DNA of 64,000 nucleotides from a bacterium HR35 (GCA_002898235.1 BEIL01000001.1:16034-80033), one strand, 5' to 3'. Shown: positions 36,302 through 52,480, numbered from the stretch's first letter. The notes: generated from the sequence alone by a model not told the origin. Made by a program: numbers and translations.

Positions 36302-36323
36302 CAAATTTTTATTTTTTAAACAA

Positions 36324-37604: not shown

Positions 37605-37629
37605 ATGAATTATTGATTTTCAATTAATA

Positions 37630-38430: not shown

Positions 38431-38457
38431 ATTAAAATACAATCTATCATTTGAAAA

Positions 38458-39363
38458 ATGGAGGGGTTAGTTCTCTTTAATAAACCAAGTGGTTTAACTT
38501 CAACACAAATTGTAAATTATTTTAAGAAAATAACCAAAAAGAAAGTAGGACATGGAGGGACCTTAGATCCTTTGGCTAATGGGCTTTTAATACTAGGAAT
38601 AGGAGAATTTACTAAAGAATTAACGAAGTTTTTAAAAGAAAGTACCAAAACCTATATAGCTGAGATTGTTTTAGGAGCAAAATCAAATACATATGATAAA
38701 GAAGGAAAAATTGAAGTTGTAAGCTCAAAAAAAGTAGAATTAGAAGAAATAGAAAAAACCTTAAATGAATTTTTAGGAGAAATAGAACAAAGCCCGCCGC
38801 CATTTTCAGCTGTTAAGATTAAAGGTAAGCCGGCTTATCAATATGCTCGCTTAAGAGAAAAGATTGATTTAAAACCAAGAAAAGTAAAGATTTATGAAAT
38901 TAGAATTATAAATTACAATTGGCCTAATCTTAAACTTGAATTAACAGTCTCTTCTGGAGCTTATATTAGGTCATTGGCTAATGATTTAGGAGAAAAATTG
39001 GGTGTTGGAGCTTATTTGAATGGTTTAGTTAGAACAAAAATCGATGAATTTAACTTAGACGAAGCTCTTACTTTTGAAGATTTGAAAAATAATTATCTGG
39101 AATTTTTAGCTAAAGTTTATGGACGAGTTCAGGGTGTTGGTTTTAGATTTTTTTGTTATAACTGGGCTAAAAATTTAAAAATTTTTGGTTATGCAAAAAA
39201 TTTAAATGATGGTAGCGTTGAAATTTTAGCTCAAGGCAGAGAAGAGAATTTGCAAAAATTTTTAGAAAAGATAAAACAAGGACCAAAATTAGCTAAAATT
39301 GAAAAACTCGAAGTTGTCTGGAGAAAAGCAAAAAATAAAGTTTTTAACTTTGAAACTCTTTAA
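38458..39363 (+). CDS. truB: tRNA pseudouridine(55) synthase TruB fused to a C-terminal acylphosphatase domain
   Basis: TruB motif GHGGTLDPLANGLLILGIG. The C-terminal 90 aa carry acylphosphatase signatures VYGRVQGVGFRFF and GYAKNLNDGSVEI. Confidence 0.8.
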   Translation: MEGLVLFNKPSGLTSTQIVNYFKKITKKKVGHGGTLDPLANGLLILGIGEFTKELTKFLKESTKTYIAEIVLGAKSNTYDKEGKIEVVSSKKVELEEIEKTLNEFLGEIEQSPPPFSAVKIKGKPAYQYARLREKIDLKPRKVKIYEIRIINYNWPNLKLELTVSSGAYIRSLANDLGEKLGVGAYLNGLVRTKIDEFNLDEALTFEDLKNNYLEFLAKVYGRVQGVGFRFFCYNWAKNLKIFGYAKNLNDGSVEILAQGREENLQKFLEKIKQGPKLAKIEKLEVVWRKAKNKVFNFETL

Positions 39364-39390
39364 AATAGTTTTATAATTTAATCAAGAAAA

Positions 39391-40254
39391 ATGATTGAGG
39401 AGTTACACGATAAAAAAGTAAAATTTTTAGAGGAAAAAGCAAACGAAATCCGACAATTAATTATTGATATGCTTTTAGAAGCAGGCTCTGGGCATTCTGC
39501 TGGACCATTGGGAATGGCTGATATTTTTTCAGCTTTTTATTTTCATATTTTGCGTCATGATCCCCAAAATCCTGATTGGCCTGATCGAGATAGATTAATT
39601 TTATCTAATGGTCATATTTGTCCTGTTCGTTATGCTGCTATGGCGCTTGCTGGTTATTTTCCAGTTGAAGAATTAAAAACATTAAGAAAAATTAATACTC
39701 GTCTTCAAGGCCATCCTCATCGAACAACACTTCCAGGAGTTGAAACTTCTTCTGGCCCTTTAGGTGAAGGAATTTCTCAAGCAATCGGCATTGCTTATGC
39801 TGGAATTTTAGATAAAAAAGATTATCATGTTTATTGTATTACTTCTGATGGCGAGCATCAAGAAGGAAATACTTGGGAAGCTTATATGTGGCTTGGTAAA
39901 AATCCTTTACCGAATTTAACAATTATTATTGATCGAAATTACATTCAAATTGATGGAGTAACAGAAGACGTTATGCCCCTTGAACCATTAAAACAAAAAT
40001 TAGAAGCTTTTGGTCTTCATGTTTTAGAAGTTGATGGTCATAATATCAGAGCTTTTGTTGATGCAGTTAGAACAGCAAGGTCAGAATGGAGAAGGACCTC
40101 GGTTATTATTGCTTATACAATTCCAGGTAAAGGAGTAAGTTTTATGGAAAAGAAATTTGAATGGCACGGCAAACCACCAAACAAAGAAGAAGCCAAAAAA
40201 GCCTTAGATGAACTAAGAACATTAGGAGGAAAAATAACTAGTGAGCATCAATAA
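39391..40254 (+). CDS. transketolase, N-terminal (TPP-binding) subunit of a split enzyme
   Basis: SGHSAGPLGMADIF, GPLGEGIS, and HQEGNTWEAY. 287 aa. Confidence 0.8.
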   Translation: MIEELHDKKVKFLEEKANEIRQLIIDMLLEAGSGHSAGPLGMADIFSAFYFHILRHDPQNPDWPDRDRLILSNGHICPVRYAAMALAGYFPVEELKTLRKINTRLQGHPHRTTLPGVETSSGPLGEGISQAIGIAYAGILDKKDYHVYCITSDGEHQEGNTWEAYMWLGKNPLPNLTIIIDRNYIQIDGVTEDVMPLEPLKQKLEAFGLHVLEVDGHNIRAFVDAVRTARSEWRRTSVIIAYTIPGKGVSFMEKKFEWHGKPPNKEEAKKALDELRTLGGKITSEHQ

Positions 40255-40267
40255 TTCAATAACATTA

Positions 40268-40311
40268 TAGTAATTCAATAGTAATACAATAGTAATACAG
40301 TAGTAATCAAA
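40268..40311. repeat. 11 bp tandem repeat, four copies (TAGTAAT[T/A]CA[A/G])
   Basis: tagtaattcaa tagtaatacaa tagtaatacag tagtaatcaaaa, directly after the tktN stop. Confidence 0.8.
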
Positions 40312-40342
40312 ATATTTTTTAGAAGTGGTAAAATTAAAATAA

Positions 40343-41632
40343 ATGAGTTGGCTTATGGAAAAAAAGTATATTTTGATAGTATTATTTTTGCTTTTCTTGG
40401 GGCTAGTTTTAATTAAGCAAACAAAAATTAGAGCAGAAATCGCTTATTTTTATCCTCAAAGTTGTTTAGGAAGTTTTATTAATCCTGAAAAAGCCCAAGG
40501 AAAGCCCGAAGTTGATAATCCTGATTTAATAAATGAATCAAATTCTGCTGTTTATTTAGGCGGTTTTAAAGAAATTTATTGTGGAAATTTTCAAGGACCA
40601 GAAGTACAAGGCGAAATAAAGAAAATAACATTACATTTTAATTGGATTGTTACTAAAGAAAGGAGAGAAGCAGTTCTAACTGAACCAACCTCAACAAACG
40701 ATTCAAATATTTTAGAAAAAATTATTCCTCCGAAAACAATAGAAATAATACCAGCAACTCCAACAACTGAAACAGCACCTTTACCAAATACCACTCCAAC
40801 ACCAGAAGCAACCTCGACACCTCAGTCATCTTTTAACACGGATTCACGCGGATTATTATTACACGGATATACACGGAAATTATTTAACCTAGATAAAAAT
40901 TATCTAGATATCTTATTTTGGTGGAAAACAACTTTTGCTGAAGAAATGGCAACACCAATAGAATCGACAACACCTACAACCTTAACAACAACTCCATCAG
41001 AAGCTCAAAATCAATCAACTGAAACTCAATCAATAATAATTACAACAACTCCTACATCTACAGAAAATCAAACCGAAACAACCTCTTCTACTACAAGTAC
41101 TGAAGCATTGACTACTCCAACAACCTCAGAAACAACTTCATTAACAACCTCAACTCCTCCTAAAACTCTATTTGAAGTCCATTACACTTTGGATGGTGAA
41201 AATTGGACTTATCTTGGAGATATTAAAACGCAGACTAACGCAGACAACACGCAGACTAACGCAGACAACTATTTTATTCCCGATGTTTCTTTTGAAATAC
41301 CAGTAAATAATTGGCTTGATATTTCAAAAATTCAAATAAAAATCAATTCTTTACCTGATACTGACTACTATCTTTATTTAGAATCAATGTGGTTTGAAGT
41401 TGAATATGAACTTCCGCAAGCAACATCAACTATTTCAGAAATAACAAATTTTGTTGGTGGCACTATAAGTTCTTTAACAGAAAATTTTTCTAATGATACT
41501 TCTACATTGTCAGAAACCTCAACATCTTATGGCGAAGATGATGAAGAAATTTTAACTCCAACAAATTTAGAAAATGCTACTCCTACTCCTCATTACCTCC
41601 TCTTAAACAAAGAAAATATACTAAAGAAATAA
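40343..41632 (+). CDS. secreted Thr/Ser/Pro-rich (mucin-like) surface protein
   Basis: N-terminal signal anchor and long T/S/P low-complexity linkers. Contains in-frame short repeats (40836-40878 and 41228-41269). Confidence 0.4.
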   Translation: MSWLMEKKYILIVLFLLFLGLVLIKQTKIRAEIAYFYPQSCLGSFINPEKAQGKPEVDNPDLINESNSAVYLGGFKEIYCGNFQGPEVQGEIKKITLHFNWIVTKERREAVLTEPTSTNDSNILEKIIPPKTIEIIPATPTTETAPLPNTTPTPEATSTPQSSFNTDSRGLLLHGYTRKLFNLDKNYLDILFWWKTTFAEEMATPIESTTPTTLTTTPSEAQNQSTETQSIIITTTPTSTENQTETTSSTTSTEALTTPTTSETTSLTTSTPPKTLFEVHYTLDGENWTYLGDIKTQTNADNTQTNADNYFIPDVSFEIPVNNWLDISKIQIKINSLPDTDYYLYLESMWFEVEYELPQATSTISEITNFVGGTISSLTENFSNDTSTLSETSTSYGEDDEEILTPTNLENATPTPHYLLLNKENILKK

Positions 41633-41988
41633 AAATTCAAAATCCTGACAATATTTCTTGTAAAATAGAGCCATTTTCAATTGAAGTTAAAGAAGAAGAA
41701 ACAAAAACAGCCAATTTAATAATTTCAGCAAATAACACAAAAAACATTGAAATCGGAAGCTTGCCTTCAGGAATAGACATTCAATTAGAAAATAATAATT
41801 ACGAAATGCAAACATCAAATAATTCAATTCAACTAAAAATATATCGTCAACAAGGTTCAGACAAAGGCAACTTCAATATTCCAATAATCCTTTCCTCAGG
41901 CAATTCAACAATAATTTGTCAAATGAATATCATAGCATTTTAGTAGCTAGTAGCTAGTAATTAGTATCTAGTAGCTAGTAGTAGTAAG

Positions 41989-42336
41989 ATGAAAACAAAA
42001 TCTTTTAAGGAATTAATAGTTTGGCAAAGAGCAAAAGAATTAGCAATAGAAGTATATAAATTAACATCAAAATTTCCAAAGTCAGAGCTTTTTGGATTAA
42101 CAAACCAAATGAGAAGAGCTTCAATTTCTATTTCTTCAAATATTGCTGAAAGTTATCATCGCTTCCATTCTAAAGAGAAAAAACAATTTTTAGCAGTTGC
42201 CTTTGGCTCTGGAGCAGAATTAGAAAGCCAAATTGAAATTGCTAAATCACTTTTTCCAAATTTAGATTATTCAAAAGTAGAAACATTACTTGCAGATATA
42301 ATGAAAATTTTAAATAAAATTATTAATAAAAAATGA
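41989..42336 (+). CDS. four-helix-bundle protein of the 23S rRNA intervening-sequence protein / Avd family
   Basis: WQRAKELAIEVYKLTSKFPKSELFGLTNQMRRASISISSNIAEG is the characteristic motif of this family. The stop overlaps the next start (ATGA). Confidence 0.7.
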   Translation: MKTKSFKELIVWQRAKELAIEVYKLTSKFPKSELFGLTNQMRRASISISSNIAESYHRFHSKEKKQFLAVAFGSGAELESQIEIAKSLFPNLDYSKVETLLADIMKILNKIINKK

Positions 42337-45300
42337 AAAAAAATCATCCAAAATTATCTACTAGATTCTACTTACTATCTACTAGATTCTTAGTTTTATT
42401 ACTTTTAATTTCAATGTTCTTTTTCGGTTATCCTGTTATTTGGAAAAATCCAAGAATACCACCAAAGATTAAGGAAGCACAGGCGGCAATTAGTTTTATT
42501 GGAAGCGTTGAAGGATCAGCAGCAAACGGCGGCGATGTCACGCTTAGCCTTTCCGGTCTTGGACTCCAAGAAGGCGACCTCGTCATCGTGGCCTATGCCA
42601 TTGGAGATAATGATAACGTGAATTTCAACATGGCAATACTATCGCCAGCTGGTTATACCGAGGTTGCCGACTTACATTCCGATGATACACAAGATGTTGA
42701 TCTCGGTGTTTACTGGAAAGTTATGGGAGCCACACCAGACACATCTGTTACGGTAGATGGTTTAGGAGGAACTGATGCTTCAGTGGCAGCAGTGGCAATG
42801 GCTTTCCGGGGTGTTGATCCCGCAACTCCAATGGATGTGATTCCAACTACGGCAACTGGCATTAATACTATGCATCCCAATCCCCCAGCAATAGACTATG
42901 TAAGCACCGGTGTCTGGACAGTTATTGCGGGAGCAAGTGGGCATGCGCTTAATTTAGCTAATACTAACAATCCCTATACTTTCCCATCAGGATATACAAC
43001 AGATAATGTTCAACGACCTGAAAATGATACAAGCGATGTGACAGTTGGATTGGGATACAGAACAAATCCCGCTGATCCCGAGGATCCTGGCGTTATGACA
43101 CACAGCGGAACTGACAGCACAAGTTACTCGTGGGCTGCAGTTACAATTGCTTTAAGACCCAAACCACCTTCTACTTTTAATCAATCAGCTTATAGATTTT
43201 TTAATAATCTTGATTCAACTGATGTTGGTTCTCCTTTAGCCAATCAAAATACTCCAGCAAGCTTAACTTCAGCTGGTCAAGCATTTAGATTGAGATTACT
43301 TATTCATGTAGGAACATCAAATCTGTTGGAAAATGAACAAAGTTTCAAACTTCAATTTGGTACCTCTACTGGTTCATCTTGTACTTCTTCACCACCTGCT
43401 TCTTGGGCTGATGTTACAACTTCAACACCAATAGCTTTTAATGACAACCCAACACCAGCTGATGGTGCTACTTTAACTGCTAATACTAATGACCCAACTC
43501 ATGGAGCTGATATTATTGTCAATCAAACCTATGAAGAATTAAATAATTTTACAAACTCTGTCTCTTCAATTAACGCTGGCGAAGATGGTAAATGGGACTT
43601 TTCATTAAAAGATAATGGTGCTCCAGCTGGTACTACTTATTGTTTAAGAGTTGTAAAAGCTGATGGAACTTTATTAGATACTTATTCAGTTATTCCTCAA
43701 ATTACAACCGCCGCAGCTCCAATTTTATCAGCTTATAGATTTTTTAATAATTTAGATTCAACTGATGTTGGTTCTCCTTTAGCTAATCAAGATACAGCTG
43801 CAACTTTAACTTCAGCTGGTCAAGCTTTTAGATTAAGACTTTTACTTCATTTACCCTCGGGTTTAAATTTCAATTCTCCCACTTCTTCAAATAATTTAAT
43901 AGAATCTGGATTAATTCCAGCTGGCTCTGGTGGTGGTAGAATTAGAATAGCTGCGCCTACTCCCAATAGATTATACTTGGTTTATTATGATATGACTAAT
44001 CTAGATTTAAGATTCTGTCGAAGTACTAATGGTGGAGTGAGTTGGAGTTGTAATGCAATTGAATCGACTGGTGATGTAGGCGTAACTCCGGATATTTATG
44101 CTCTTGATGAAAACAATATATTTATTACTCATAGAGATGCAACAAATGGTAATTTAAGATTTTGTAAAAGTAGTAATGGTGGTTTAAATTTTTCTTGTTC
44201 TATTCTTGAAGCTGGTTGGCAGGGGTTTGATTCTTCTATTAAAGCTATTTCAACTTCAACAATTTTTGTTTCTTACGCTCCAGCTCCAGCAAATTTTAGC
44301 TATTCAATTTTGAGATTTTGCCGAACAACTGATGGTGGTAACACCTGGAATTGCTCAGATGTTGAAGGAAATACAACAACTCAATATGGTTGGTATTCAT
44401 CTTTAGATGCAGTTGATTCTAATAATATTTATATTGCCCACTATGATGGGATCAATTTAGATTTAAGATTTTGTCGGACTTCAAACGGTGGAACAACTTG
44501 GAATTGTGGTGTAATTGAAACTACAGGTGATATAGGAAGAAAACCATCTATAAAAGCTTTTAACAATAATTATATTTATATAGCACATCGAGACGAAACA
44601 AATAATCAATTAAGATTTTGTCGAACTACAGATGGAGGAACTAGTTGGAATTGTAATGCAATAGAAATCGGAGGTTTTTCTTCTTCTTTAAAAATAGTTG
44701 ATAAAGATGTAGTTTATATAGCCCATTTTGATTTTACAAATGCTTCTATAAGACTTTGTAATACTAATAATGGTGGACAAACTTGGAGCTGTTCTACAAT
44801 TGCTAATGCTCCCCCTACTCTTACTTCTGGTGAAAATTTAAGTCTTTCTTTAGATTTACTTGATCCTTATATGATTTATGTAGCTTATGGTTTTACTACT
44901 GATTCTTCTAATGAGGTAAGATTGTATAAATATACAGGGAATGATTTTTTTAAACTTCAATATTCAGTTATGTCTGGAACTTGTGATACTTCATTTTCTG
45001 GTGAAGTTTATAATGATGTAGGTTTCGATACCCCTATTGCTTTTTATAATAATAACACTACAAGTGATGCCTCGACTCCAACTACTAACACCAATGATCC
45101 AACTCATGGTACTGATACAATTGTTTATCAAACTTATAAAGAAAAAAAATTTTTTACAAATAGAACGAACATTTTTTCGGGAAGTGATGGTTTATGGGAT
45201 TTTGTTTTGAGAGATAATAACGCTCCTTCAAATACAACTTATTGTTTAAGAGTTGTAAAAGCAGATGGAAGCTTACTTCAGGGTTACAATGTTATCCCTC

Positions 45301-45797
45301 AAATTACAACTGCAGCAGCTGCACCGATTACTTGTACTTTTTCAGCAACTTCAACTTCATTTTCAAGTTTATCTCCTTCAGCTGTTTCAACTTCTTCTCC
45401 TGATATAACTATTACTGTTACTTCTTCAGCTGGTTTTATAATTTCTGTAAATGATGCAGGTAATGGAACTAACCCAGGTCTTTATAAATCAACCTCGCCA
45501 ACATATCTAATTCCTTCTCCAAATTCTTCTTATACAGCAACTGCTACTTTAGTGGCTGGGGTAGATGGTTATGGAATTCAAGCAACAACTACAAATTCAA
45601 ATATAAGTATTAATCCAAGATACAATGTTAGTGGAGATACTGTTGGAGGACTAACTACAACAACTATTACTTTGGCAAGTTCTTCAGTTGCTGTTTCTTC
45701 GGCTCAAATTACAATTAAACATAAAGCAGCAGTTTCAAGTTTAGCACCAACAGGCAATTATCAAGATACAATAACATATAGCTGTACAAGTCCATAG
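42333..45797 (+). CDS. large surface protein with N-terminal signal anchor, a compositionally atypical N-terminal domain, duplicated YRFFNNLDSTDVGSPLANQ segments, a BNR/Asp-box beta-propeller and a C-terminal domain shared with the next gene
   Basis: Six BNR-like blades (LRFCRSTNGGVSWSC, LRFCKSSNGGLNFSC, LRFCRTTDGGNTWNC, LRFCRTSNGGTTWNC, LRFCRTTDGGTSWNC, IRLCNTNNGGQTWSC). 1154 aa. Confidence 0.55.
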   Translation: MKKNHPKLSTRFYLLSTRFLVLLLLISMFFFGYPVIWKNPRIPPKIKEAQAAISFIGSVEGSAANGGDVTLSLSGLGLQEGDLVIVAYAIGDNDNVNFNMAILSPAGYTEVADLHSDDTQDVDLGVYWKVMGATPDTSVTVDGLGGTDASVAAVAMAFRGVDPATPMDVIPTTATGINTMHPNPPAIDYVSTGVWTVIAGASGHALNLANTNNPYTFPSGYTTDNVQRPENDTSDVTVGLGYRTNPADPEDPGVMTHSGTDSTSYSWAAVTIALRPKPPSTFNQSAYRFFNNLDSTDVGSPLANQNTPASLTSAGQAFRLRLLIHVGTSNLLENEQSFKLQFGTSTGSSCTSSPPASWADVTTSTPIAFNDNPTPADGATLTANTNDPTHGADIIVNQTYEELNNFTNSVSSINAGEDGKWDFSLKDNGAPAGTTYCLRVVKADGTLLDTYSVIPQITTAAAPILSAYRFFNNLDSTDVGSPLANQDTAATLTSAGQAFRLRLLLHLPSGLNFNSPTSSNNLIESGLIPAGSGGGRIRIAAPTPNRLYLVYYDMTNLDLRFCRSTNGGVSWSCNAIESTGDVGVTPDIYALDENNIFITHRDATNGNLRFCKSSNGGLNFSCSILEAGWQGFDSSIKAISTSTIFVSYAPAPANFSYSILRFCRTTDGGNTWNCSDVEGNTTTQYGWYSSLDAVDSNNIYIAHYDGINLDLRFCRTSNGGTTWNCGVIETTGDIGRKPSIKAFNNNYIYIAHRDETNNQLRFCRTTDGGTSWNCNAIEIGGFSSSLKIVDKDVVYIAHFDFTNASIRLCNTNNGGQTWSCSTIANAPPTLTSGENLSLSLDLLDPYMIYVAYGFTTDSSNEVRLYKYTGNDFFKLQYSVMSGTCDTSFSGEVYNDVGFDTPIAFYNNNTTSDASTPTTNTNDPTHGTDTIVYQTYKEKKFFTNRTNIFSGSDGLWDFVLRDNNAPSNTTYCLRVVKADGSLLQGYNVIPQITTAAAAPITCTFSATSTSFSSLSPSAVSTSSPDITITVTSSAGFIISVNDAGNGTNPGLYKSTSPTYLIPSPNSSYTATATLVAGVDGYGIQATTTNSNISINPRYNVSGDTVGGLTTTTITLASSSVAVSSAQITIKHKAAVSSLAPTGNYQDTITYSCTSP

Positions 45798-45957
45798 TTA
45801 GTAGCTAGTAATTAGTAATTAGTAACTAATAGTAATGCAATAAAAAAATTTTTTTGACAAAATATGATATAATTTTAGTAAAATAAGCTCGCCCTGTAGT
45901 GAAACGAATTTTCTACTACAGGGGTAGAAGGGTCGAAAATTAAATAAAAAAAATCAA

Positions 45958-46593
45958 ATGGAAAAGGAAAATCAAACACAAAATTTAATTCTTTTGATAG
46001 GCATATTTTTAACTATTTATTTTGTTTATGAACTTTTTATTCTACCATCAGGACTTTTAAGAGCACAAACTAATGTGACGGTTACAGCAACCGTAACAAC
46101 AACTGTAACTTGTAATCCTGCAACAACTACTACTAATTTTGGCACTATTGATGCAAGTGCTGTTTATACTTCTTCTCCTAATGTAATTACCACTGTTTCT
46201 TGTAATCCTGCAGCAGGATGTAATGTTACTATTAGGGATCAAGGTTCAGGAACTCAACCAGGTTTATGGAATTCAACAGCTTCTTATCTAATTCCTTCAC
46301 CAAATGCTTCTTTTTCAGCAACAGCAACTTTAGTAGCTGGAACAGAAGGTTATGGAATTCAAGCAACAACAACTTCAGCTGGCTCAGGAGGAACTCTTTC
46401 TTTAAATTCAAGATATGTTCAAACAGGAAATACTGTCGGAGGATTGACAACAACCACAATTCAATTAGCTTCTTCAACCGAGCCAGTAGCAAATAGAGAA
46501 ATTGTTGTTACTCATAAAGTAGCAATCTCAGGTTTAACCAGAGCAGGTAATTATCAAGACATAATTACATATAGCTGTGCAAGTAATTTTTAG
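45958..46593 (+). CDS. secreted paralog of the C-terminal domain of the preceding 1154 aa protein
   Basis: Signal anchor. About 60% aa identity to the last roughly 170 aa of ORF 42333-45797 (shared PGLWNST..YLIPSPN..ATATLVAG..GYGIQATTT..TVGGLTTTTI..GNYQDxITYSC). Confidence 0.45.
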   Translation: MEKENQTQNLILLIGIFLTIYFVYELFILPSGLLRAQTNVTVTATVTTTVTCNPATTTTNFGTIDASAVYTSSPNVITTVSCNPAAGCNVTIRDQGSGTQPGLWNSTASYLIPSPNASFSATATLVAGTEGYGIQATTTSAGSGGTLSLNSRYVQTGNTVGGLTTTTIQLASSTEPVANREIVVTHKVAISGLTRAGNYQDIITYSCASNF

Positions 46594-46655
46594 TATCTAG
46601 TAGTTAGAATTTAGTAAATAGCAATGAATCAAAAAAGTAAAGAAAAAAATTAAAA

Positions 46656-47534
46656 ATGAAAAAATATCTCTTATTTATTTTTTTACTAGCTTCTATTTTA
46701 TATTTACTAGTTACTAATTCTGTTTTTGCTTTAACTGTTGGACCTGCTAAATTAGAATTTACAACTGATCCGGGGCAAGTTTTAGAATTTAGTTTGTTTG
46801 TTAGAAATGATAGTGATTATGATTCTAAGTATCAAATTATTGTTGAAGGGTTTACTGAAGAAAATGGAGAAAGAAAATATATTACCAATCCGCCTGAAGC
46901 AAGTTGGGTTGAAGCACCAAAGGATATTTTTATTAAAGCCAAAGAAGATACAAATGTTCCTATAAAAATTAATGTTCCTAAAGATGCTCCGCCAGGAGGT
47001 CATTTTTTAGTTTTATGGGTAAGCACTAAACCTGAGGGAGGTCAGGTTGCAATTGTTACCAGAGTTGGAGCTTTAGTTTTTATTAATGTTTCAGGAAAGG
47101 CTATTTATAAGGCTTATATTAGTGAGCTAAAAGCACCAAAAATTGCTTTTGATTTTCCAGTAAAATTTTCTTATGTAATCAAAAATGAAGGCAACACCTA
47201 TATAACACCTAAAGGCAATATTGAAATTAAAAATATTTTCGGAAGATTAATTGCTGATTTGCCTATAAATCCAAGGGAATTACAGCTTTTACCCAATACC
47301 TCAAAAAATTTTGAACAAGAATGGAAAGCACCGTTTGCTTTTGGAATTTATAAAGCTATTTTTAATTTAGAATATGCCAATTCAAGAAACTCTTTGAATT
47401 ATTGGTTTGTTTTTATTCATCTTAAAGCATTAATTATTTTGATGATTATCTTTGTTTTTGTTGTTTTTGTTTTACCAAGATTAATTAAAAAATATAATGA
47501 ATGGGTAATTAAAAGATATATGCAAAATAAATGA
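46656..47534 (+). CDS. secreted beta-sandwich protein with C-terminal TM anchor
   Basis: Signal peptide, predicted beta-rich ectodomain, C-terminal hydrophobic helix followed by basic residues (LPRLIKKYNEW). Confidence 0.35.
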   Translation: MKKYLLFIFLLASILYLLVTNSVFALTVGPAKLEFTTDPGQVLEFSLFVRNDSDYDSKYQIIVEGFTEENGERKYITNPPEASWVEAPKDIFIKAKEDTNVPIKINVPKDAPPGGHFLVLWVSTKPEGGQVAIVTRVGALVFINVSGKAIYKAYISELKAPKIAFDFPVKFSYVIKNEGNTYITPKGNIEIKNIFGRLIADLPINPRELQLLPNTSKNFEQEWKAPFAFGIYKAIFNLEYANSRNSLNYWFVFIHLKALIILMIIFVFVVFVLPRLIKKYNEWVIKRYMQNK

Positions 47535-48581
47535 ATGAATTTAAAAAATTTTTTCAATGTTGTTTTAATAATTTTCTTCTCGTTTTTATTACTTTATGCT
47601 TTTAATTATTTAAAATCTGCAGGTGTAACTATTAAAGCTTTTGTGCCTGGAGTTTGTGGCAATAATCTTAAAGAACCAGGAGAAGAATGTGATGGTCCTG
47701 ATTTAGGAGGTCAAAGCTGCGTTTCTTTAGGTTATTCAGGAGGAACTTTGTCTTGTAATTCTAATTGTACTTTTAATGCTTCACAATGCACTATCTCCCC
47801 GCCAAGTGGAGGAGGCGGAGGCGGTGGAGCATATATACCTCCTTATGGAACAGTTATTCTTTCAGGAAGAGCCCAACCAAATTCTGATGTTACTTTAATT
47901 TCAGATGGCCAAATAAGAACAATTATCAAAGCTGATACTGATGGAAAATTTAAATTTACTCTTTCCAACCTAACCCCAGGCAATTATATTTTTACTTTAT
48001 ATGCTGAAGATACTGAGGGAAGAAGGACAAGCTTACATTCAGTTCCAGCAGTAGTTACCGCAGGTCTTACAATTGAAATAGGTAATATTTTTCTTTCACC
48101 AACAATTGATATTGATAAAATACAAGTTAAGCGTGGAGATATTTTAAGAATTTTTGGTCAAACAGCTCCTGATTCTAATGTTTTGATTGTTGTTTCTTCT
48201 GAAGAAGAATTATATTTTCAAACTCAAGCAGAAAAAGATGGAAGTTATTTATATGCCTTAGATACTACAATTTTAGATTATGGCCAGCATTTTACAAAAT
48301 CAAGATCAATTTTAGCCAATCAATTAGTTAGTTCTTTTTCAAAAGCTTTAGCATTTCAGGTTTCAACAACTTCGGTAGTTAAAAAACCAACAAAATGTCC
48401 ATTAAAAGGTGATTTAAACAATGATTGCAGAGTAAATTTGATTGATTTTTCAATTGCTGCTTATTGGTATAAAAGAAAATTAAGTCCAAATTTTGCTAAA
48501 ATTGAAAAAGAGAAATTAAACGGAGATGGAAAGGTCGATTTGGTTGATTTTAGTATTATGGCGTATTGGTGGACGGGATAA
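47535..48581 (+). CDS. dockerin-containing surface protein (N-terminal signal anchor, Cys-rich repeat, Gly linker, Ig-like region, C-terminal dockerin)
   Basis: Two dockerin-type Ca-binding segments, DLNNDCRVNLIDFSIAAYW and LNGDGKVDLVDFSIMAYW. A CGNNLKEPGEECDGPDLGGQSC Cys-rich repeat. Confidence 0.55.
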   Translation: MNLKNFFNVVLIIFFSFLLLYAFNYLKSAGVTIKAFVPGVCGNNLKEPGEECDGPDLGGQSCVSLGYSGGTLSCNSNCTFNASQCTISPPSGGGGGGGAYIPPYGTVILSGRAQPNSDVTLISDGQIRTIIKADTDGKFKFTLSNLTPGNYIFTLYAEDTEGRRTSLHSVPAVVTAGLTIEIGNIFLSPTIDIDKIQVKRGDILRIFGQTAPDSNVLIVVSSEEELYFQTQAEKDGSYLYALDTTILDYGQHFTKSRSILANQLVSSFSKALAFQVSTTSVVKKPTKCPLKGDLNNDCRVNLIDFSIAAYWYKRKLSPNFAKIEKEKLNGDGKVDLVDFSIMAYWWTG

Positions 48582-48584
48582 TAG

Positions 48585-48800
48585 ATGTTTCGCGAGTTGG
48601 CTTTTATATATCGCACACACGCCTATGAGCACCGGCACTCAACTTCCTCCAGCGGCAAGTTGGTGCCTCGTGGTCTCGGCTCAAAAACTTTGCCATCTGC
48701 TGAAAGCAGACTGGCAAAGACCAAGCTTTTTAAGCCTCCGACACGTGCTCTACGGCGTGGTGCTCGACAAAATGTCTGCGTCAGTCTGCGTTTTATACAA
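48585..48800. other. 220 bp GC-rich (about 50% GC) intergenic element with internal inverted repeats
   Basis: Sharp composition jump versus flanks. Hairpin potential in GGCACTCAACTT...AAGTTGGTGCC and GCAGACTG...CAGTCTGC. Ends with GTCTGCGTCAGTCTGCGTT, the reverse complement of the ACGCAGAC motif seen in in-frame insertions elsewhere. Confidence 0.5.
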
Positions 48801-48802
48801 AA

Positions 48803-49621
48803 ATGGCAAAAATTTATTTACAAATAGATAAGGAAGTGAATACTAATTATTTCACAGTTCCTATTTATCTTGACACCGAAGGTGAATCAGTTAATGCTTT
48901 TGAAGTGAAGATAAAAACATCTAACAATTTGATTTTTAGAGATTATTTAGAAAAAGATTCAATTATTAGTTATTGGATTGAAAAACCTTCAATTAAAGAA
49001 AATATTTTGTCATTTTCAGGAATTACTCCAGGTGGTTATATTGGTAAAAAGGGTTTGTTGGTAAATTTAATTTTTGAAGCTAAACAAAACGGACAAGCTT
49101 TTATTGAAATTTTACCTTCATCACAAATTTTACTAAACGATGGTTTAGGAACTAAGGCAGGATTAAAAACAGATAGATATGAATTTTTGTTAAATATTAC
49201 TCAAACTCAAAAAATAAGCATTGAAGACCGTTATCCTCCAGAACCATTTAAAATTTATCCTCAAAGAAATAAGGAAATTTTTAACAATAAGTATTACATT
49301 ATTTTTGAGGCTAAAGATAAACAATCAGGTATAGCTTATTATGAAGCTGCTGAAGTTCCTATCTGTATAAATCTAGGTTTAACCTGCGAAAATCCTCGTT
49401 TTGAAAAAGTCTCATCTCCATATCTTTTAAAAGATCAATCTTTAAGAAGCTATATTTATGTTAAAGCAGTTGATCGAGCAGGAAATGAAAGAATTGAAAT
49501 TTTAAAACCACAAAGATTGTTTTTAGCTGAAGAAATTTTGTTTTTCTTTATTTTTAGTAGTTTGTTTATTTTAGGAATCATTTTTTATAATAAAATTAAA
49601 TGGCATTTAAGAATAAAATAA
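48803..49621 (+). CDS. cohesin-like domain protein with C-terminal TM anchor; N-terminal signal peptide apparently missing
   Basis: Cohesin-like N-domain aligns with that of the next gene (AKIYLQIDKEVNTNYFTVPIYLDT vs ASIYLSPAQKTVNVGDSFSIVVYVES, then LVNLIFEAKQNGQAFIEIL...LLNDGLG). An Ig-like ...SGIAYY...VDRAGN domain. The ORF begins exactly at the mature-domain boundary, immediately after the GC-rich element. Confidence 0.45.
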   Translation: MAKIYLQIDKEVNTNYFTVPIYLDTEGESVNAFEVKIKTSNNLIFRDYLEKDSIISYWIEKPSIKENILSFSGITPGGYIGKKGLLVNLIFEAKQNGQAFIEILPSSQILLNDGLGTKAGLKTDRYEFLLNITQTQKISIEDRYPPEPFKIYPQRNKEIFNNKYYIIFEAKDKQSGIAYYEAAEVPICINLGLTCENPRFEKVSSPYLLKDQSLRSYIYVKAVDRAGNERIEILKPQRLFLAEEILFFFIFSSLFILGIIFYNKIKWHLRIK

Positions 49622-51303
49622 TTTTATTTTTAGGGATATTAAACTTTTTAGTTTTTAAAGGAGTTTTCGCTGCCTCAATTTATCTTTCTCCAGCACAAAA
49701 AACAGTTAATGTCGGTGATAGTTTTAGTATTGTTGTTTATGTTGAATCTTCTGATCAAGCAATGAATGCTGTTTCTTTTAGATTAAGCTTTCCTAAGGAT
49801 TTACTTAAGGTTAATAATGTTTCTAAGGCTGGAAGTATTATTAATTTTTGGGTTCAAGAACCTCAAGTTTCAGCTGAAGAAATTTTTACTGAAGGAGTAG
49901 TTTTAAATCCTGGTTATCAAGGAAGTGCTGGAAAAATTTTAACAATTAATTTTAAAGCTTTAAAAGAGGGAACTGCTGATTTAAATTTTATTTCTGGTAG
50001 CGTTTTAGCTAATGATGGGCAGGGAACAAATATTTTAAAAAGTTTAAATTCAGCAACAATTAAAATTAGACCTAAAGTAAAAGAAGAAAAAACAAAAGAT
50101 GTTTTTCAACAAACTTCTTTTATCCCAGCTCCAATAATTATTTCTCCAACGCATCCTAGCCAAAATAAATGGTATAACATAAAAGAAGCCAAGTTAGTAT
50201 GGAATTTACCAGAAAATATTAACGAAGTAAGAACCTTACTTGGACAAAATCCAAATGCTTATCCTCAAGTAAGTTATATTCCACCAATAAATTCGAAAGA
50301 TGTTACTACCCCCTATGATGGTGTTTGGTATTTTTCTCTTCAATTTTGTAATGAAACTAGTTGTTCAGATATAGGAAGATATAAACTCCAAATAGATACA
50401 ACACCTCCAACTGTAAATTTGAAAGAAATTCAGAGAGAAGATTTAACTGACCCAAGAGTAAAAATTTATATTGATGCTAAAGACGATCTTTCTGGAATTG
50501 ATTATTATTTAATAAATATAAATGGAAAAACTGAAAAATGGATTGATGATGGTACTCATATTTATCAACTAAAAGATTTAAAACCTGGTCAATATGAAAT
50601 TTCAGTTAAAGTTTTTGACAAAGCAGGGAATAATAATGAGGCTAAATTAAGTTTTGAAATAAAACCATTAGAACCACCAGAAATTACTGATTATCCAAAA
50701 GAAGTTGTTTTGGGTGAACCAGTTATTATTAAAGGAAGAACAAAGTATCCAAATGTCGATGTTTATGTTTATTTAGAGCATCAAAAGGGCGCAAAAGTTG
50801 TTAATAATACTAAAACAAAAGAAAATGGTGAATTTGAAATAATGGTTAATAATTTATCAGCTGGAGTTTATAAAGCTTATGCTCAATTTAGGGATGAAAT
50901 AGGTCGAGAGTCTTTGCCGAGTGATTATGTAAATATTGTTGTAAGAGTGCCTTATCTTATTGAAGTTTTTGGCTTGAAAATAAATATATTTAATGTTCTT
51001 ATTCTGTTTATTAGTTTAATCATAGTTTTAATCCTAGGAATCACATATTATCTTAGAAAACTTAATCAAATAAGAGAAAGAGTAGAAAAAGAAACAAAAG
51101 ATTTGCATAATGCAATCCATAATTTTATAAAATATCTTCATTCAAGATTTGAAGAACAAATAAAACTTTTACAAGAAACAAAGAATAAAAGAGAATTAAC
51201 CGAAGAAGAAAACAAAATTCTACATGAGCTTGAAGAAAAATTAGATAAATTAAATAAGTATTTACATAAAGAAATTAAAGATATTGAAGAGATTTTTAAG
51301 TAA
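49600..51303 (+). CDS. cohesin-like domain surface protein with signal peptide, Ig-like domains, C-terminal TM anchor and cytoplasmic coiled coil
   Basis: Cohesin pattern TVNVGDSFSIVVYVES..AVSFRLSFPKDLLKV..GKILTINFKALKEGTADLNFISGSVLANDGQG. A later LSGIDYY...FDKAGN Ig-like motif. TM helix ILFISLIIVLILGI near the C-terminus. Confidence 0.55.
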   Translation: MAFKNKIILFLGILNFLVFKGVFAASIYLSPAQKTVNVGDSFSIVVYVESSDQAMNAVSFRLSFPKDLLKVNNVSKAGSIINFWVQEPQVSAEEIFTEGVVLNPGYQGSAGKILTINFKALKEGTADLNFISGSVLANDGQGTNILKSLNSATIKIRPKVKEEKTKDVFQQTSFIPAPIIISPTHPSQNKWYNIKEAKLVWNLPENINEVRTLLGQNPNAYPQVSYIPPINSKDVTTPYDGVWYFSLQFCNETSCSDIGRYKLQIDTTPPTVNLKEIQREDLTDPRVKIYIDAKDDLSGIDYYLININGKTEKWIDDGTHIYQLKDLKPGQYEISVKVFDKAGNNNEAKLSFEIKPLEPPEITDYPKEVVLGEPVIIKGRTKYPNVDVYVYLEHQKGAKVVNNTKTKENGEFEIMVNNLSAGVYKAYAQFRDEIGRESLPSDYVNIVVRVPYLIEVFGLKINIFNVLILFISLIIVLILGITYYLRKLNQIRERVEKETKDLHNAIHNFIKYLHSRFEEQIKLLQETKNKRELTEEENKILHELEEKLDKLNKYLHKEIKDIEEIFK

Positions 51304-51322
51304 TTAATTTATAATATAAATA

Positions 51323-52480
51323 ATGCTTAATCCAGAATTAAAATTGAATCCAAAAATTTTTGATGAAGATATTGAGCAAAAGCCAATTAGAGATGGTTAT
51401 AGTGATGCTTTGGTTGAGCTTGGAGAAAAAAATCCTGATGTTGTTGTTTTAACTGCTGATTTAGCTGAATCAACCAGAGCTCATAAATTTGCCGAAAAAT
51501 TTCCTGAAAGATTTATTGAATGCGGAGTGGCTGAACAAAATATGGCTGGTATTGCTGCTGGTTTAGGTGTAAGTGGTAAAATTGCTTTTATTTCCTCTTA
51601 TGCAACTTTTTCTCCTGGCAAAAATTGGGAAACAATTAGAACAACAATAATTTATAATGATTCAAATGTAAAAATTGCCGGTCATCATTCAGGAATTGTT
51701 ACTGGTCCTGATGGTGCCACTCATCAAGCAACCGAAGATATAGCTATTATGAGATGCTTACCGAATGTTAGAATAATTTCTCCTTGTGACTTTTGGGAAG
51801 CAAAAAAAGCAACTTTATATTCAGCAGAAGTTTATGGTCCTTTTTATATTAGATATGTAAGAGATAAAACACCTATAATAACAACAGAAGAAACACCTTT
51901 TAGATTTGGAAAAATTGAAGAATTCTGGATACCAAACACAGACCATACACGGACTATACACGGACAGAACAGACAAAATAATAAGTCCGAACAGTCTGAG
52001 TCTAGTCCGAATCAGTCCGTGTTAAGTCCAAACAAGTCCGTGTCTAGTCCGAACAAGTCCGTGAGTATGCAGAATAACGCAGATAAAAATATAGTTGCTA
52101 TTTTTGCAACTGGACATCTAGTTTATCAGGCACTTTTGGCTGCTAAAGAATTAGAAGAGGAGGGAATAGATGTTTATGTTTTGAATGTTCATACAATAAA
52201 ACCACTTGATGTTGAAAAAATTTTTGAAATTGCAAAAAAAGTTAGAGGAATAGTTACTTTAGAAGACCACCAAGTTCAAGGAGGAATGGGAAGCGCAATT
52301 AGTGAAGCTTTAATGAATATTGATTTTCAAAAACAATATGGCCTTTTTTCTGTTCCTCCGATTAAATTTTTAGGACTTCAAAATACTTTTGGTGAATCGG
52401 GCAAACCCAATGAATTAATTCAAAAATATGGAATGGATAAAGAGGCAGTAAAAAAGGCGGTTTATGAGTTTCTTAAATGA
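51323..52480 (+). CDS. transketolase, C-terminal subunit of a split enzyme, with a roughly 50 aa low-complexity in-frame insertion
   Basis: Pyrimidine-binding and C-terminal transketolase domains (FIECGVAEQNMAGIAAG, GPDGATHQATEDIAIMR). Insertion PNTDHTRTIHGQNRQNNKSEQSESSPNQSVLSPNKSVSSPNKSVSMQNNADKN at nt 51935-52090. Confidence 0.8.
   Translation: MLNPELKLNPKIFDEDIEQKPIRDGYSDALVELGEKNPDVVVLTADLAESTRAHKFAEKFPERFIECGVAEQNMAGIAAGLGVSGKIAFISSYATFSPGKNWETIRTTIIYNDSNVKIAGHHSGIVTGPDGATHQATEDIAIMRCLPNVRIISPCDFWEAKKATLYSAEVYGPFYIRYVRDKTPIITTEETPFRFGKIEEFWIPNTDHTRTIHGQNRQNNKSEQSESSPNQSVLSPNKSVSSPNKSVSMQNNADKNIVAIFATGHLVYQALLAAKELEEEGIDVYVLNVHTIKPLDVEKIFEIAKKVRGIVTLEDHQVQGGMGSAISEALMNIDFQKQYGLFSVPPIKFLGLQNTFGESGKPNELIQKYGMDKEAVKKAVYEFLK

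What the first reader, a model, noticed from the sequence alone, without database searches (positions are those of the whole stretch)
39391..52480. Split transketolase genes separated by an 11 kb surface-protein island
N-terminal and C-terminal transketolase subunit genes are normally adjacent and co-transcribed. Here they are 11 kb apart, with the intervening DNA carrying only surface proteins, repeats and compositional anomalies. The island therefore looks like an insertion into the tkt operon. Expression of the two subunits becomes uncoupled.
Basis: inference. Interest (0 to 1): 0.5.

Follow-up and report, generated by a model that had tools for sequence, protein, structure and literature searches.

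The report
Surface-protein cluster splitting transketolase genes
In this ultra-small hot-spring bacterium, an 11-kb block of cell-surface protein genes sits exactly between the two genes for the halves of transketolase, which overlap in close relatives; this is a real but fairly ordinary rearrangement, and its most interesting feature is the set of small hairpin-flanked selfish genes scattered through it.

Summary
tktN (39391-40254) and tktC (51323-52480) are intact and under purifying selection. They are separated by 11,065 bp (40256-51320) carrying eight co-directional genes. In the closest relatives with the same flanks (KatS3mg096, KatS3mg094, L007), the tktN stop and tktC start overlap (TAATG), so this is an insertion into the pair.

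The block is not a foreign mobile island. It has no recombinase, no target-site duplication and no terminal repeats. It is a copy of a surface-protein cluster that is widespread in Patescibacteria (pilin-like, cohesin and dockerin proteins). Sister genomes keep this cluster at another locus (MOFRL-rpe).

The tktN-island-tktC module occurs in at least two flanking contexts, and homology ends at the outer edges of the tkt genes. The window's tktC is a mosaic (P=0.004). I infer a single insertion that was then moved or kept by homologous recombination, with the tkt genes acting as arms.

Translational coupling is lost. Transcriptional uncoupling is unproven.

The junction is not a special hotspot: a control on neighbouring gene pairs gave similar rates of interruption.

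Side finding: the island and tktC carry units built like 23S rRNA intervening sequences. These are a four-helix-bundle or GxxExxY nuclease ORF between inverted tandem-motif arms, plus ORF-less hairpin remnants, one of them in frame inside tktC.

The parts
39350..39377 (+). Best promoter-like site of the region (TTGAAA-16-TATAAT), 13 nt upstream of the tktN ATG
   Evidence: 11 of 12 matches. This is a consensus match only; the total number of promoter-like sites is not above the shuffled expectation.
39391..40254 (+). tktN, the transketolase N-terminal (thiamine-diphosphate-binding) subunit, 287 aa
   Evidence: PF00456 at 193 bits. NF004559 positions 12-281. 95-97% aa identity to relatives. dN/dS 0.04-0.06.
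40255..40342 (+). Left junction. The island begins right after the tktN stop. It contains the tandem ATAGTAATACA x3.7 (40267-40307) and an extended -10-like TGGTAAAAT (40326-40334) before gene 1.
   Evidence: Empty-site alignment A1. TRF. The motif is conserved before gene 1 in L003. Promoter function is inferred.
40343..41944 (+). Island gene 1, a Thr/Ser-rich secreted protein. In the window the ORF stops at 41632 because of a 1-nt deletion near 41590. The intact version (529 aa) runs to 41944.
   Evidence: Homologues are in L003, L086, L087 and L088. It contains in-frame tandem motifs at 40836-40884 and 41227-41269.
41941..42390 (+). IVS-like unit: a four-helix-bundle ORF (41989-42336) enclosed by 36-nt inverted arms (41942-41977 and 42355-42390) made of TAGTAGC/CTAGTAG tandem motifs. 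The right arm lies in the first codons of the next ORF.
   Evidence: PF05635 at 110 bits and TIGR02436 at 110.6 bits. Inverted repeat I1. The arms pair in both MFE and centroid folds. The same unit is 87-88% identical in L086, with edges at the arms but at a different position. Arm-score control.
42333..45797 (+). 1154-aa variable surface protein: a GC-rich N-terminal domain unique to this genome, two copies of an internal repeat, BNR-like propeller repeats and a C-terminal pilin-like domain paralogous to the 211-aa protein
45798..45834 (+). Solo arm remnant (TAGTAGCTAGTA...) at the position where L086 carries the complete IVS-like unit
45958..46593 (+). 211-aa secreted protein with a pilin-like Ig fold, highly conserved in Patescibacteria
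   Evidence: More than 250 homologues at 50-80% identity. AF2 model pLDDT 89.8. Best PDB matches are the chaperone-usher pilins CfaB, CsuA/B and FimG.
46656..47534 (+). 292-aa protein with a signal peptide and a C-terminal membrane anchor; weak WxLIP_PGBD/Fn3-like match
   Evidence: 83-89% identical in L083, L086, L087 and L088.
47535..48581 (+). 348-aa Big_6 plus dockerin-like protein
   Evidence: 1973 homologues.
48582..48802 (.). GC-rich (0.52-0.56) non-coding element that folds as a long imperfect hairpin. It occupies the same intergenic site where L083 and L086 carry a PDDEXK_3 gene unit.
   Evidence: z about -5 on both strands, no Rfam hit. (site comparison). The outer stem is conserved in L088.
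48803..49621 (+). 272-aa cohesin-like protein with a C-terminal membrane anchor
   Evidence: 27% identical to the N-terminus of the 567-aa protein.
49600..51303 (+). 567-aa cohesin plus Big_13 protein with a transmembrane segment and a C-terminal coiled coil; the last island gene
   Evidence: It is HRbin35_00066, with 923 homologues, the listed ones mostly near full length at 38-43% identity.
51304..51322 (+). Right junction, 19 nt between the island and the tktC ATG; homologous in the window, L083 and L088
51323..52480 (+). tktC, the transketolase pyrimidine-binding plus C-terminal subunit, 385 aa
   Evidence: PF02779 and PF02780. NF004559 positions 316-624. dN/dS 0.11-0.13. Mosaic 5' end.
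51935..52069 (+). 135-nt in-frame insert in the tktC inter-domain linker, made of tandem motifs (ACACGGAC twice forward, GTCCGTGT twice) that form a hairpin. It sits at the same codon where KatS3mg095 and P0361 carry a complete PDDEXK_3 domain.

Best explanation
An 11,065-bp block of eight co-directional genes (40256-51320) was inserted once, in an ancestor shared with KatS3mg095, JGI Ga0401068_000507 and CAZZNB01. It went in exactly at the overlapping stop/start (TAATG) of the split transketolase genes.

The block is not a foreign mobile element. It is a copy of a resident surface-protein cluster that is widely conserved in Patescibacteria. The cluster encodes pilin-like subunits, a large variable adhesin-like protein, membrane-anchored cohesin proteins and a dockerin protein. 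I infer that it builds a cell-surface fibre or complex.

After the insertion, the highly conserved tktN and tktC genes acted as homology arms. Gene conversion or homologous recombination between tkt loci, within or between closely related genomes, moved or retained the tktN-island-tktC module. That explains why it now sits in different flanking contexts.

Both tkt halves remain functional. tktN keeps its own promoter-like site. tktC has lost its stop/start overlap with tktN. It is presumably transcribed by read-through of the island or from island-internal promoters.

Shown: the insertion, the empty sites, the paralogous locus, the module boundaries, purifying selection and the tktC mosaic. 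Inferred: the recombination mechanism, the expression route and the function of the cluster.
For: Empty site:
- Window 38745-40255 and 51321-54441 are colinear with L004 9361-13849.
- L004, L006 and L007 have ...CA(G/A)TAATGCTTAATCC at the junction.

Adjacency in relatives:
- 38 of 69 relatives have a gap under 150 nt.

Same island in other genomes:
- It lies between tktN and tktC in L088, and is seen adjoining one tkt gene in L003 (tktN side) and L083 (tktC side), where the fetched locus stops before the other end.
- The right junction is homologous.

Resident cluster:
- The 567-, 348- and 211-aa proteins have 923, 1973 and more than 250 homologues.
- The same gene order occurs without tkt in L084 and L085.
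- KatS3mg094, which has an empty tkt site, carries the cluster at the MOFRL-rpe locus; KatS3mg095 carries it at both loci.

Not a classical mobile island:
- No recombinase.
- No TSD or TIR.
- No boundary tRNA.

Module boundaries:
- Window/L088 homology runs from 39390, 1 nt before the tktN ATG, to 52455, 25 nt before the tktC stop. The flanks are unrelated.
- KatS3mg096 has two tkt loci that are 99.9-100% identical over exactly the tkt genes.

Incongruence and mosaic:
- tkt dS is 0.44 between the window and L004 (empty site) but 0.67-0.80 between the window and the island-bearing genomes.
- The first 224 nt or so of the window's tktC are L088-like (17 of 27 informative sites). The rest is L004-like (96 of 128). 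Permutation P=0.004.

Function retained:
- dN/dS is 0.04-0.13.

Pilin-like fold of the 211-aa protein.
Against: - The mosaic signal is modest. It is the best of six tests, about 0.02 after correction, and there is no corresponding signal at the island-proximal end of tktN.
- The different flanks could instead reflect ordinary rearrangements around an intact module.
- I could not see whole genomes, so I do not know whether HR35 has a second tkt locus or a second copy of the cluster.
- The tkt-locus cluster is not a simple duplicate of the MOFRL-rpe cluster. The cohesin gene there is inverted and only 40% identical, so the direction of copying is unresolved.
- The promoter and terminator scans are no better than shuffled sequence, so the expression statements are inference only.
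- The mechanism of the first insertion is unknown.
Confidence: 0.68

Rival explanations
1. The island between tktN and tktC is ancestral for this group of hot-spring Parcubacteria. The 'empty' sites (KatS3mg096, KatS3mg094, L007) arose secondarily, for example by gene conversion from an island-free paralogous tkt copy that restored the TAATG overlap.
For: - Island presence does not follow tkt similarity. The window is closer to the empty-site genomes than to the other island bearers.
- KatS3mg096 shows active conversion between its two tkt loci.
- Four sampled genomes carry the island.
Against: - More distant relatives (66-76% tktN identity) overwhelmingly have adjacent genes or small unrelated inserts.
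- In distant genomes the cluster lies elsewhere.
- A precise deletion restoring an overlapping stop/start is unlikely unless a template copy was available.
Confidence: 0.15
2. The block is a classical horizontally acquired genomic island or integrative element that targeted the tkt operon.
For: - Sharp boundaries at the stop/start overlap.
- Local GC anomalies.
- Selfish small genes lie inside it.
- It is absent from close relatives at this site.
Against: - No integrase, transposase or relaxase in the window's island.
- No TSD or terminal inverted repeats, and no tRNA at a boundary.
- The cargo is a core-like cluster present in hundreds of Patescibacteria, and present at another locus in sister genomes at 78-87% aa identity for the three central genes.
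- The GC anomalies are confined to one protein domain and one 220-nt hairpin.
Confidence: 0.07
3. The arrangement is selected. The surface cluster was placed inside the tkt operon so that surface-structure synthesis is co-regulated with pentose-phosphate metabolism, and the operon still works as one 13-kb transcription unit.
For: - All ten genes are co-directional with short gaps.
- No + strand terminator is predicted in the island, and tktC has no strong promoter.
- The paralogous cluster in sister genomes also abuts a pentose-phosphate gene, rpe.
Against: - There is no expression data.
- Other conserved neighbouring gene pairs in the same loci are interrupted about as often (23-46% against 40%), which suggests neutral permissiveness.
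- The GC-rich hairpin and the IVS-like arms could break up transcripts.
Confidence: 0.08
4. The separation is an assembly or binning chimera.
For: The source is a metagenome-assembled genome, and repeats are present in the region.
Against: - An independent Logan assembly (L001) is identical from 30001 to 42914 apart from one 1-nt indel, and so spans the left junction.
- L083 and L088 independently show island-tktC.
- L003 and L088 independently show tktN-island.
Confidence: 0.02

Closest known systems
Split transketolase (separate N-terminal and C-terminal subunit genes, as in many archaea, Firmicutes and Patescibacteria)
   Same: tktN carries the thiamine-diphosphate-binding domain. tktC carries the pyrimidine-binding and C-terminal domains. 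Together they cover a full-length transketolase model. In most relatives the two genes abut or overlap.
   Different: Here the genes are 11 kb apart. tktC also carries a 46-aa repeat insert in the inter-domain linker.
23S rRNA intervening sequences (IVS) encoding S23p four-helix-bundle proteins (Coxiella, Leptospira, Xanthomonas; PMC4990558)
   Same: An ORF of the same family (PF05635/TIGR02436) lies in the loop of a stem formed by terminal inverted repeats, with tandem heptamer repeats directly upstream of the ATG. GxxExxY/PDDEXK_3 ORFs in relatives have the same layout.
   Different: These units are not in rRNA. They sit between protein-coding genes, overlap the 5' end of an ORF and, in relatives, lie in frame inside tktC. 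RNase III excision is untested.
REP/RAYT elements and MITE-like palindromic repeats
   Same: Short GC-rich hairpin-forming repeat units are scattered between and within genes. L003 has an IS200-like Y1 transposase gene flanked by GACGTACGACGTC palindromes at the position of the window's four-helix-bundle unit.
   Different: The window has no Y1 transposase. The arms are built from tandem 7-11-nt motifs that differ between copies, and several copies are translated in frame.
Chaperone-usher (including archaic Csu) pilins and cohesin-dockerin surface assemblies
   Same: The 211-aa protein and the C-terminus of the 1154-aa protein have a pilin-like Ig fold. Two membrane-anchored proteins have cohesin-like modules and one has a dockerin-like module.
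   Different: No usher or PapD-like chaperone was detected. The organism is presumably monoderm. Sequence identity to the pilins is only 12-20%. There are no glycoside hydrolases as in cellulosomes.
Genomic islands / integrative elements inserted into operons
   Same: A discrete multi-gene block that is absent from the same site in close relatives and interrupts an operon.
   Different: No recombinase, att/TSD or tRNA target. The cargo is a resident, lineage-conserved cluster.

Membership tests
Split transketolase (TktN/TktC) | Separate ORF with the thiamine-diphosphate-binding N-terminal domain | tested here: met
   PF00456 at 193 bits; NF004559 positions 12-281
Split transketolase (TktN/TktC) | Separate ORF with the pyrimidine-binding and C-terminal domains | tested here: met
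   PF02779 at 119 bits, PF02780 at 88 bits; NF004559 positions 316-624
Split transketolase (TktN/TktC) | The two genes are adjacent or overlapping in one operon | tested here: not met
   11,065 bp and eight genes lie between them. Relatives L004, L006 and L007 overlap as TAATG.
Integrative genomic island | Integrase, transposase or other recombinase gene | tested here: not met
   No such Pfam family in any of the eight island ORFs
Integrative genomic island | Flanking direct repeats (att/TSD) or terminal inverted repeats | tested here: not met
   The longest shared word is 7 nt, matched or beaten in 940 of 1000 shuffles. Only AATAAT at the stop/start recurs.
Integrative genomic island | Insertion next to a tRNA/tmRNA gene | tested here: not met
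   The nearest tRNA (Met, 36231-36302) is 3 kb upstream, not at a boundary
Integrative genomic island | Foreign composition across the block | tested here: inconclusive
   GC is raised only at 42447-43190 and 48548-48812. The rest is at 0.27-0.34, like the flanks.
23S rRNA IVS element | ORF of the S23p / four-helix-bundle family | tested here: met
   PF05635 at 110 bits (cutoff 33.8); TIGR02436 at 110.6 bits (cutoff 24)
23S rRNA IVS element | Terminal inverted repeats forming a stem that encloses the ORF | tested here: met
   36-nt arms, 83% complementary, paired in the MFE and centroid folds. All 6 full-length family members in the fetched loci score 33-59, against a background 99th percentile of 27 (n=1476).
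23S rRNA IVS element | Tandem short repeats immediately upstream of the ORF start | tested here: met
   TAGTAGC x6.7 at 41941-41986 with the ATG at 41989. Compare GACAGAT x3 in Coxiella.
23S rRNA IVS element | Located in helix 9, 25 or 45 of a 23S rRNA gene | tested here: not met
   No rRNA in the window. The unit lies between two protein-coding genes.
23S rRNA IVS element | Excised from the transcript by RNase III | not testable with these tools
   Needs RNA end mapping or an in vitro cleavage assay
Diversity-generating retroelement | Avd accessory protein | tested here: not met
   NF033474 at 24.3 bits against a cutoff of 80; PF22296 at 27 bits against a cutoff of 40
Diversity-generating retroelement | Reverse transcriptase and a TR/VR pair with adenine-specific differences | tested here: not met
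   No RT domain in the island ORFs. The internal repeat of the 1154-aa gene is 76% identical and its mismatches are not A-biased.
Chaperone-usher pilus | Pilin subunit with an Ig-like fold | tested here: inconclusive
   Foldseek gives CfaB at E=4e-4 and CsuA/B at E=4e-3 to 9e-3, with target-normalised TM 0.45-0.58 and 12-16% identity
Chaperone-usher pilus | Periplasmic chaperone and outer-membrane usher | tested here: not met
   No PapD-like or usher Pfam match among the island proteins
Cohesin-dockerin assembly | Cohesin module | tested here: met
   PF00963 at 26.3 bits (cutoff 24.1) in the 567-aa protein
Cohesin-dockerin assembly | Dockerin module | tested here: inconclusive
   PF00404 at 21.2 bits, just under the cutoff of 22.9, in the 348-aa protein. 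Many homologues carry a precomputed PF00404 hit.

The most novel reading that the evidence does not exclude
The small units inside and beside the island form a family of mobile 'IVS-type' elements that are not specific to rRNA. Each has a four-helix-bundle (S23p) or GxxExxY PD-(D/E)XK ORF held in the loop of a stem made of inverted tandem-motif arms.

On this reading, the units insert between genes, onto the 5' ends of ORFs and even in frame into the linker of an essential enzyme. tktC of KatS3mg095 and P0361 each carry a complete nuclease domain. The units then decay to ORF-less GC-rich hairpin scars, such as the window's 135-nt tktC insert and the 221-nt element at 48582-48802.

This would bear on the 30-year-old question of where 23S rRNA intervening sequences come from and whether their ORFs serve mobility.
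Probability: 0.45. Interest if true: 0.65.

Novelty: new member of a known kind. Interest (0 to 1): 0.4.

Why it matters
The split itself matters little. It shows that the two halves of an essential enzyme tolerate losing their stop/start overlap and 11 kb of separation. It also shows that gene order in Patescibacteria is as permeable inside a two-subunit enzyme pair as between unrelated neighbours.

Three by-products are more useful:

1. It is a clear case where conserved housekeeping genes appear to serve as portable homology arms for a surface-protein cluster. That would be a route for exchanging host-interaction genes between streamlined genomes that lack classical mobile-element machinery.

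2. It points to a widely conserved, uncharacterised Patescibacterial cluster with pilin-like, cohesin and dockerin proteins. This is a candidate attachment structure in organisms thought to live as epibionts.

3. It provides IVS-like hairpin-ORF units outside rRNA, with site polymorphisms that make their mobility testable.

Tried and rejected
- Target-site duplication or terminal repeats at 40255-40342 and 51304-51322: nothing beyond chance.
- Boundary tRNA or a known RNA family: none.
- Special insertion hotspot at the tktN|tktC junction. 31 of 69 relatives have inserts of 150 nt or more with diverse cargo, which looked striking. A control on other conserved neighbouring pairs in the same loci gave 23-46% against 40%, so I dropped the claim.
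- DGR reading of the Avd-like gene next to a variable surface protein: rejected.
- Shine-Dalgarno comparison to judge tktC translation: uninformative, because none of the 17 gene starts examined around the island has an SD.
- Promoter and terminator scans: counts are not above shuffled sequence.
- PDB sequence searches with the 211-, 292- and 1154-aa proteins: no meaningful hits.
- The afdb50 fold library was unavailable.
- Literature searches found no description of this locus, of the cluster, or of IVS-type units outside rRNA.
- WxL/Csc-cluster idea for the 211/292-aa pair: only a sub-threshold WxLIP_PGBD hit. The fold search pointed to chaperone-usher-type pilins instead.
- L008's 624 nt downstream of tktN could not be interpreted.

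Full report
**Source and setting.** The window is from 'bacterium HR35'. Its 567-aa and 348-aa island proteins are HRbin35_00066 and HRbin35_00064, on a 247,965-bp contig. This is a low-GC (about 0.28) member of the Patescibacteria. Its nearest sequenced relatives are the hot-spring Parcubacteria KatS3mg094, 095 and 096.

**Observation.**
- Together they cover positions 12-281 and 316-624 of a 627-position transketolase model.
- Eight + strand ORFs lie between them.
- Seven are secreted or membrane-anchored proteins with Ig-like, cohesin, dockerin-like or BNR-like matches.
- The eighth (41989-42336) is a four-helix-bundle '23S rRNA IVS protein'.
- No tRNA or Rfam family lies in the region.
- An independent Logan assembly is identical across the left junction apart from one 1-nt indel, so the arrangement is not an artefact.

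**It is an insertion.**
- A scan of one genome per species with tktN returned 80 loci.
- In 69 of them tktC is in the fetched flank. The gap is 30 nt or less in 27 and under 150 nt in 38.
- The decisive comparison is L004 (KatS3mg096). Window 38745-40255 and 51321-54441 are colinear with L004 9361-13849, covering truB-tktN-tktC-VanY-like-rumA.
- In L004, L006 and L007 the tktN stop and tktC start overlap as TAATG.
- The inserted block is therefore 40256-51320, or 11,065 bp.
- A second difference is a 135-nt in-frame segment inside tktC (51935-52069).

**No classical mobile-island features.**
- There is no recombinase.
- There is no target-site duplication. The longest word shared by the two junctions is 7 nt, and 940 of 1000 shuffles do as well. 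Only AATAAT, which contains the stop/start, recurs.
- There are no terminal inverted repeats.

**What the block is.**
- Its proteins belong to large Patescibacterial families. The 567-aa cohesin/Big_13 protein has 923 homologues, the 348-aa dockerin-like protein has 1973, and the 211-aa protein has more than 250 at 50-80% identity.
- Distant genomes have the same core gene order in contexts without tkt (L084, L085).
- An AlphaFold model of the 211-aa protein (pLDDT 89.8) most resembles chaperone-usher pilins: CfaB at E=4e-4, and CsuA/B and FimG more weakly.
- The C-terminus of the 1154-aa protein is a paralogue of the 211-aa protein.
- I infer a surface fibre or adhesin complex anchored through cohesin-dockerin contacts. 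This is inference from folds and domains only.

**Where the cluster sits in sister genomes.**
- KatS3mg094 has an empty tkt site (L006). It carries the cluster between a MOFRL-family gene and rpe (L086).
- KatS3mg095 carries it there (L087) and also directly upstream of tktC (L083).
- A JGI contig (L088) has tktN-[methylase + 280-aa gene]-island-tktC.
- L003 has tktN followed by a diverged island.
- The central genes are 78-89% identical to the window's at both loci. The terminal cohesin gene is 78% identical at tkt loci but only 40% identical, and inverted, at the MOFRL locus.
- The island-tktC junction is homologous in the window, L083 and L088, which points to a single origin.

**The module travels with the tkt genes.**
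- Window/L088 homology starts 1 nt before the tktN ATG and ends 25 nt before the tktC stop. The flanks are unrelated.
- The window's flanks match L004's. The flanks of L083, L088 and L005 (MOFRL upstream and/or an FAD oxidase downstream, as far as each locus extends) form a second context.
- KatS3mg096 holds both contexts, and its tkt genes are 99.9-100% identical over exactly the tkt pair. The second copy is interrupted by a 1.2-kb peptidoglycan-binding-protein gene.
- Island presence does not track tkt similarity. dS is 0.44 between the window and L004 but 0.67-0.80 between the window and the island bearers.
- A maximum chi-square scan finds the first 224 nt or so of the window's tktC to be L088-like (17 of 27 informative sites) and the rest L004-like (96 of 128). 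Permutation P=0.004, the best of six tests. There is no matching signal at the island-proximal end of tktN.
- I therefore favour a single insertion followed by homologous recombination or gene conversion with the tkt genes as arms. Support is moderate.

**Consequences for transketolase.**
- Both halves are under strong purifying selection, with dN/dS of 0.04-0.06 for tktN and 0.11-0.13 for tktC. The enzyme is evidently still needed.
- The best promoter-like site of the region lies just upstream of tktN (39350-39377).
- tktC has no convincing promoter, and no + strand terminator is predicted in the island. These scans do not exceed shuffled sequence.
- None of the 17 gene starts examined around the island has a Shine-Dalgarno sequence.
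- The stop/start overlap is lost. Whether transcription is uncoupled cannot be decided here.

**Not a special hotspot.**
- 31 of 69 relatives have 150 nt or more between tktN and tktC, with diverse cargo. The cargo includes small membrane proteins, four-helix-bundle, PDDEXK_3, GIY-YIG, PIN, Nudix, glyoxalase and pilin genes.
- Other conserved neighbouring pairs in the same loci are split just as often: 23-46% against 40%.
- A Wolfebacteria-like group has tktN with no tktC within 7-10 kb.

**IVS-like units (side finding).**
- The four-helix-bundle ORF is enclosed by 36-nt inverted arms (41942-41977 and 42355-42390). The arms are built from TAGTAGC/CTAGTAG tandem motifs, and they pair in the predicted fold.
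- This is the layout of the Coxiella 23S rRNA IVS: an S23p ORF in the loop, a 28-bp terminal stem, and tandem heptamers before the ATG (PMC4990558).
- All six full-length family members in the fetched loci have arm scores of 33-59, against a background 99th percentile of 27 (n=1476).
- The window's unit recurs at 87-88% identity in L086, with edges at the arms, but on the other side of the large gene. The window keeps a solo arm at that position (45798-45834).
- GxxExxY/PDDEXK_3 ORFs in relatives have comparable arms.
- At the site where L083 and L086 carry such a unit, the window has a 221-nt GC-rich hairpin (48582-48802; z about -5; no Rfam hit). Its outer stem is conserved in L088.
- In tktC, KatS3mg095 (495 aa) and P0361 (507 aa) carry a complete PDDEXK_3 domain in frame after 'FWIP'.
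- The window has, at the same codon, a 46-aa insert with a related left edge. It is made of inverted tandem motifs that fold as a hairpin (z -4.5).
- The peptide motif of that insert recurs in a different loop of P0361.
- Similar motif arrays lie in frame in island gene 1 and in the NDH2 gene.
- The origin of rRNA IVSs is stated to be unresolved. These non-rRNA copies with site polymorphisms are the most novel lead here, but I followed them only partly.

**Verdict.** The insertion reading is supported, but the 'foreign island with TSDs' picture is not. Uncoupled expression is undecided. As a rearrangement it is a new instance of a known kind of event and is of modest interest.

Noticed in passing
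window 41941-42390 (compare L086 7766-8219; L083 700-1210; L021, L055, L062, L023): A four-helix-bundle (S23p/TIGR02436) ORF is enclosed by 36-nt inverted arms of tandem CTAGTAG motifs, the same layout as 23S rRNA intervening sequences but between protein-coding genes. The unit occurs at a different position in the paralogous cluster of KatS3mg094, with homology ending at the arms.
   Followed up: partly
window 51935-52069; L083 12409-12894; protein P0361: The tktC inter-domain linker carries a 46-aa in-frame insert of hairpin-forming tandem motifs. At the same codon, KatS3mg095 and a 507-aa relative carry a complete, apparently intact GxxExxY PD-(D/E)XK nuclease domain in frame. P0361 also has the insert's peptide motif (SEQSVLSPKKSV) in a different loop.
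   Followed up: partly
window 48582-48802: A 221-nt GC-rich (0.52-0.56) non-coding element folds as a long hairpin on both strands (z about -5) and has no Rfam match. It lies at the intergenic site where L083 and L086 carry a PDDEXK_3 gene unit. Its outer stem is conserved in L088, and its 3' end is the reverse complement of the tandem repeat in island gene 1 (41224-41246).
   Followed up: partly
window 36400-36440 (NDH2-like gene 36324-37604); 40836-40884 and 41227-41269 (island gene 1): Short GC-rich tandem motif arrays (ACGCGGACT/ACGCAGAC; ACACGGA) lie in frame inside otherwise AT-rich coding sequences. They are the same motif family as in the tktC insert and the hairpin element.
   Followed up: no
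window ~41590 (gene 1, 40343-41944): A 1-nt deletion relative to the otherwise identical Logan contig L001 frameshifts island gene 1. It is 429 aa in the window against 529 aa intact. This is either an assembly error or a population polymorphism.
   Followed up: yes
L004 9988-11867 vs L005 9988-10864 + 12078-13083 (KatS3mg096, BPJI01000001): The tktN-tktC pair is present twice in one genome, in inverted orientation and about 35 kb apart. The copies are 99.9-100% identical over exactly the two genes. The second copy is split by a 1.2-kb gene for a PG_binding_1 protein.
   Followed up: partly
L003 12573-13380: At the island position where the window has the four-helix-bundle unit, L003 has a 230-aa IS200-like Y1 transposase gene flanked by GACGTACGACGTC palindromes. 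This is a REP/RAYT-like arrangement.
   Followed up: partly
L004 14660-14940 and 15376-15500 (also L005 2127-2400, 3500-3845, 17043-17363): KatS3mg096 intergenic regions hold long arrays of a roughly 12-nt ACCCGGAT/ATCCGGGT motif in both orientations, plus CAGCAGCTGTC-type repeats. This is a dispersed repeat family that I did not analyse further.
   Followed up: no
L088 2271-4532: In the JGI relative, an N6/N4 DNA methylase gene and a 280-aa gene (possibly a restriction-modification pair) are inserted between tktN and the first island gene.
   Followed up: no
window 42447-43190: The N-terminal 280 aa or so of the 1154-aa protein is encoded by DNA of GC 0.48-0.55 and has no counterpart in the homologous proteins of L083, L087, L088 or L003. 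It may be a recently acquired adhesin domain.
   Followed up: no
window 45892-45923: A 9-bp GC-rich stem-loop (CCCTGTAGT...ACTACAGGG) lies in the 160-nt spacer upstream of the pilin-like 211-aa gene, next to TTGACA and TATAAT-like hexamers with non-canonical spacing.
   Followed up: no
window 11787-17798: A 2003-aa secreted protein with duplicated PKD-like Ser/Thr-rich modules and a beta-propeller-like C-terminal region. It is another large surface protein 22 kb upstream of the island.
   Followed up: no
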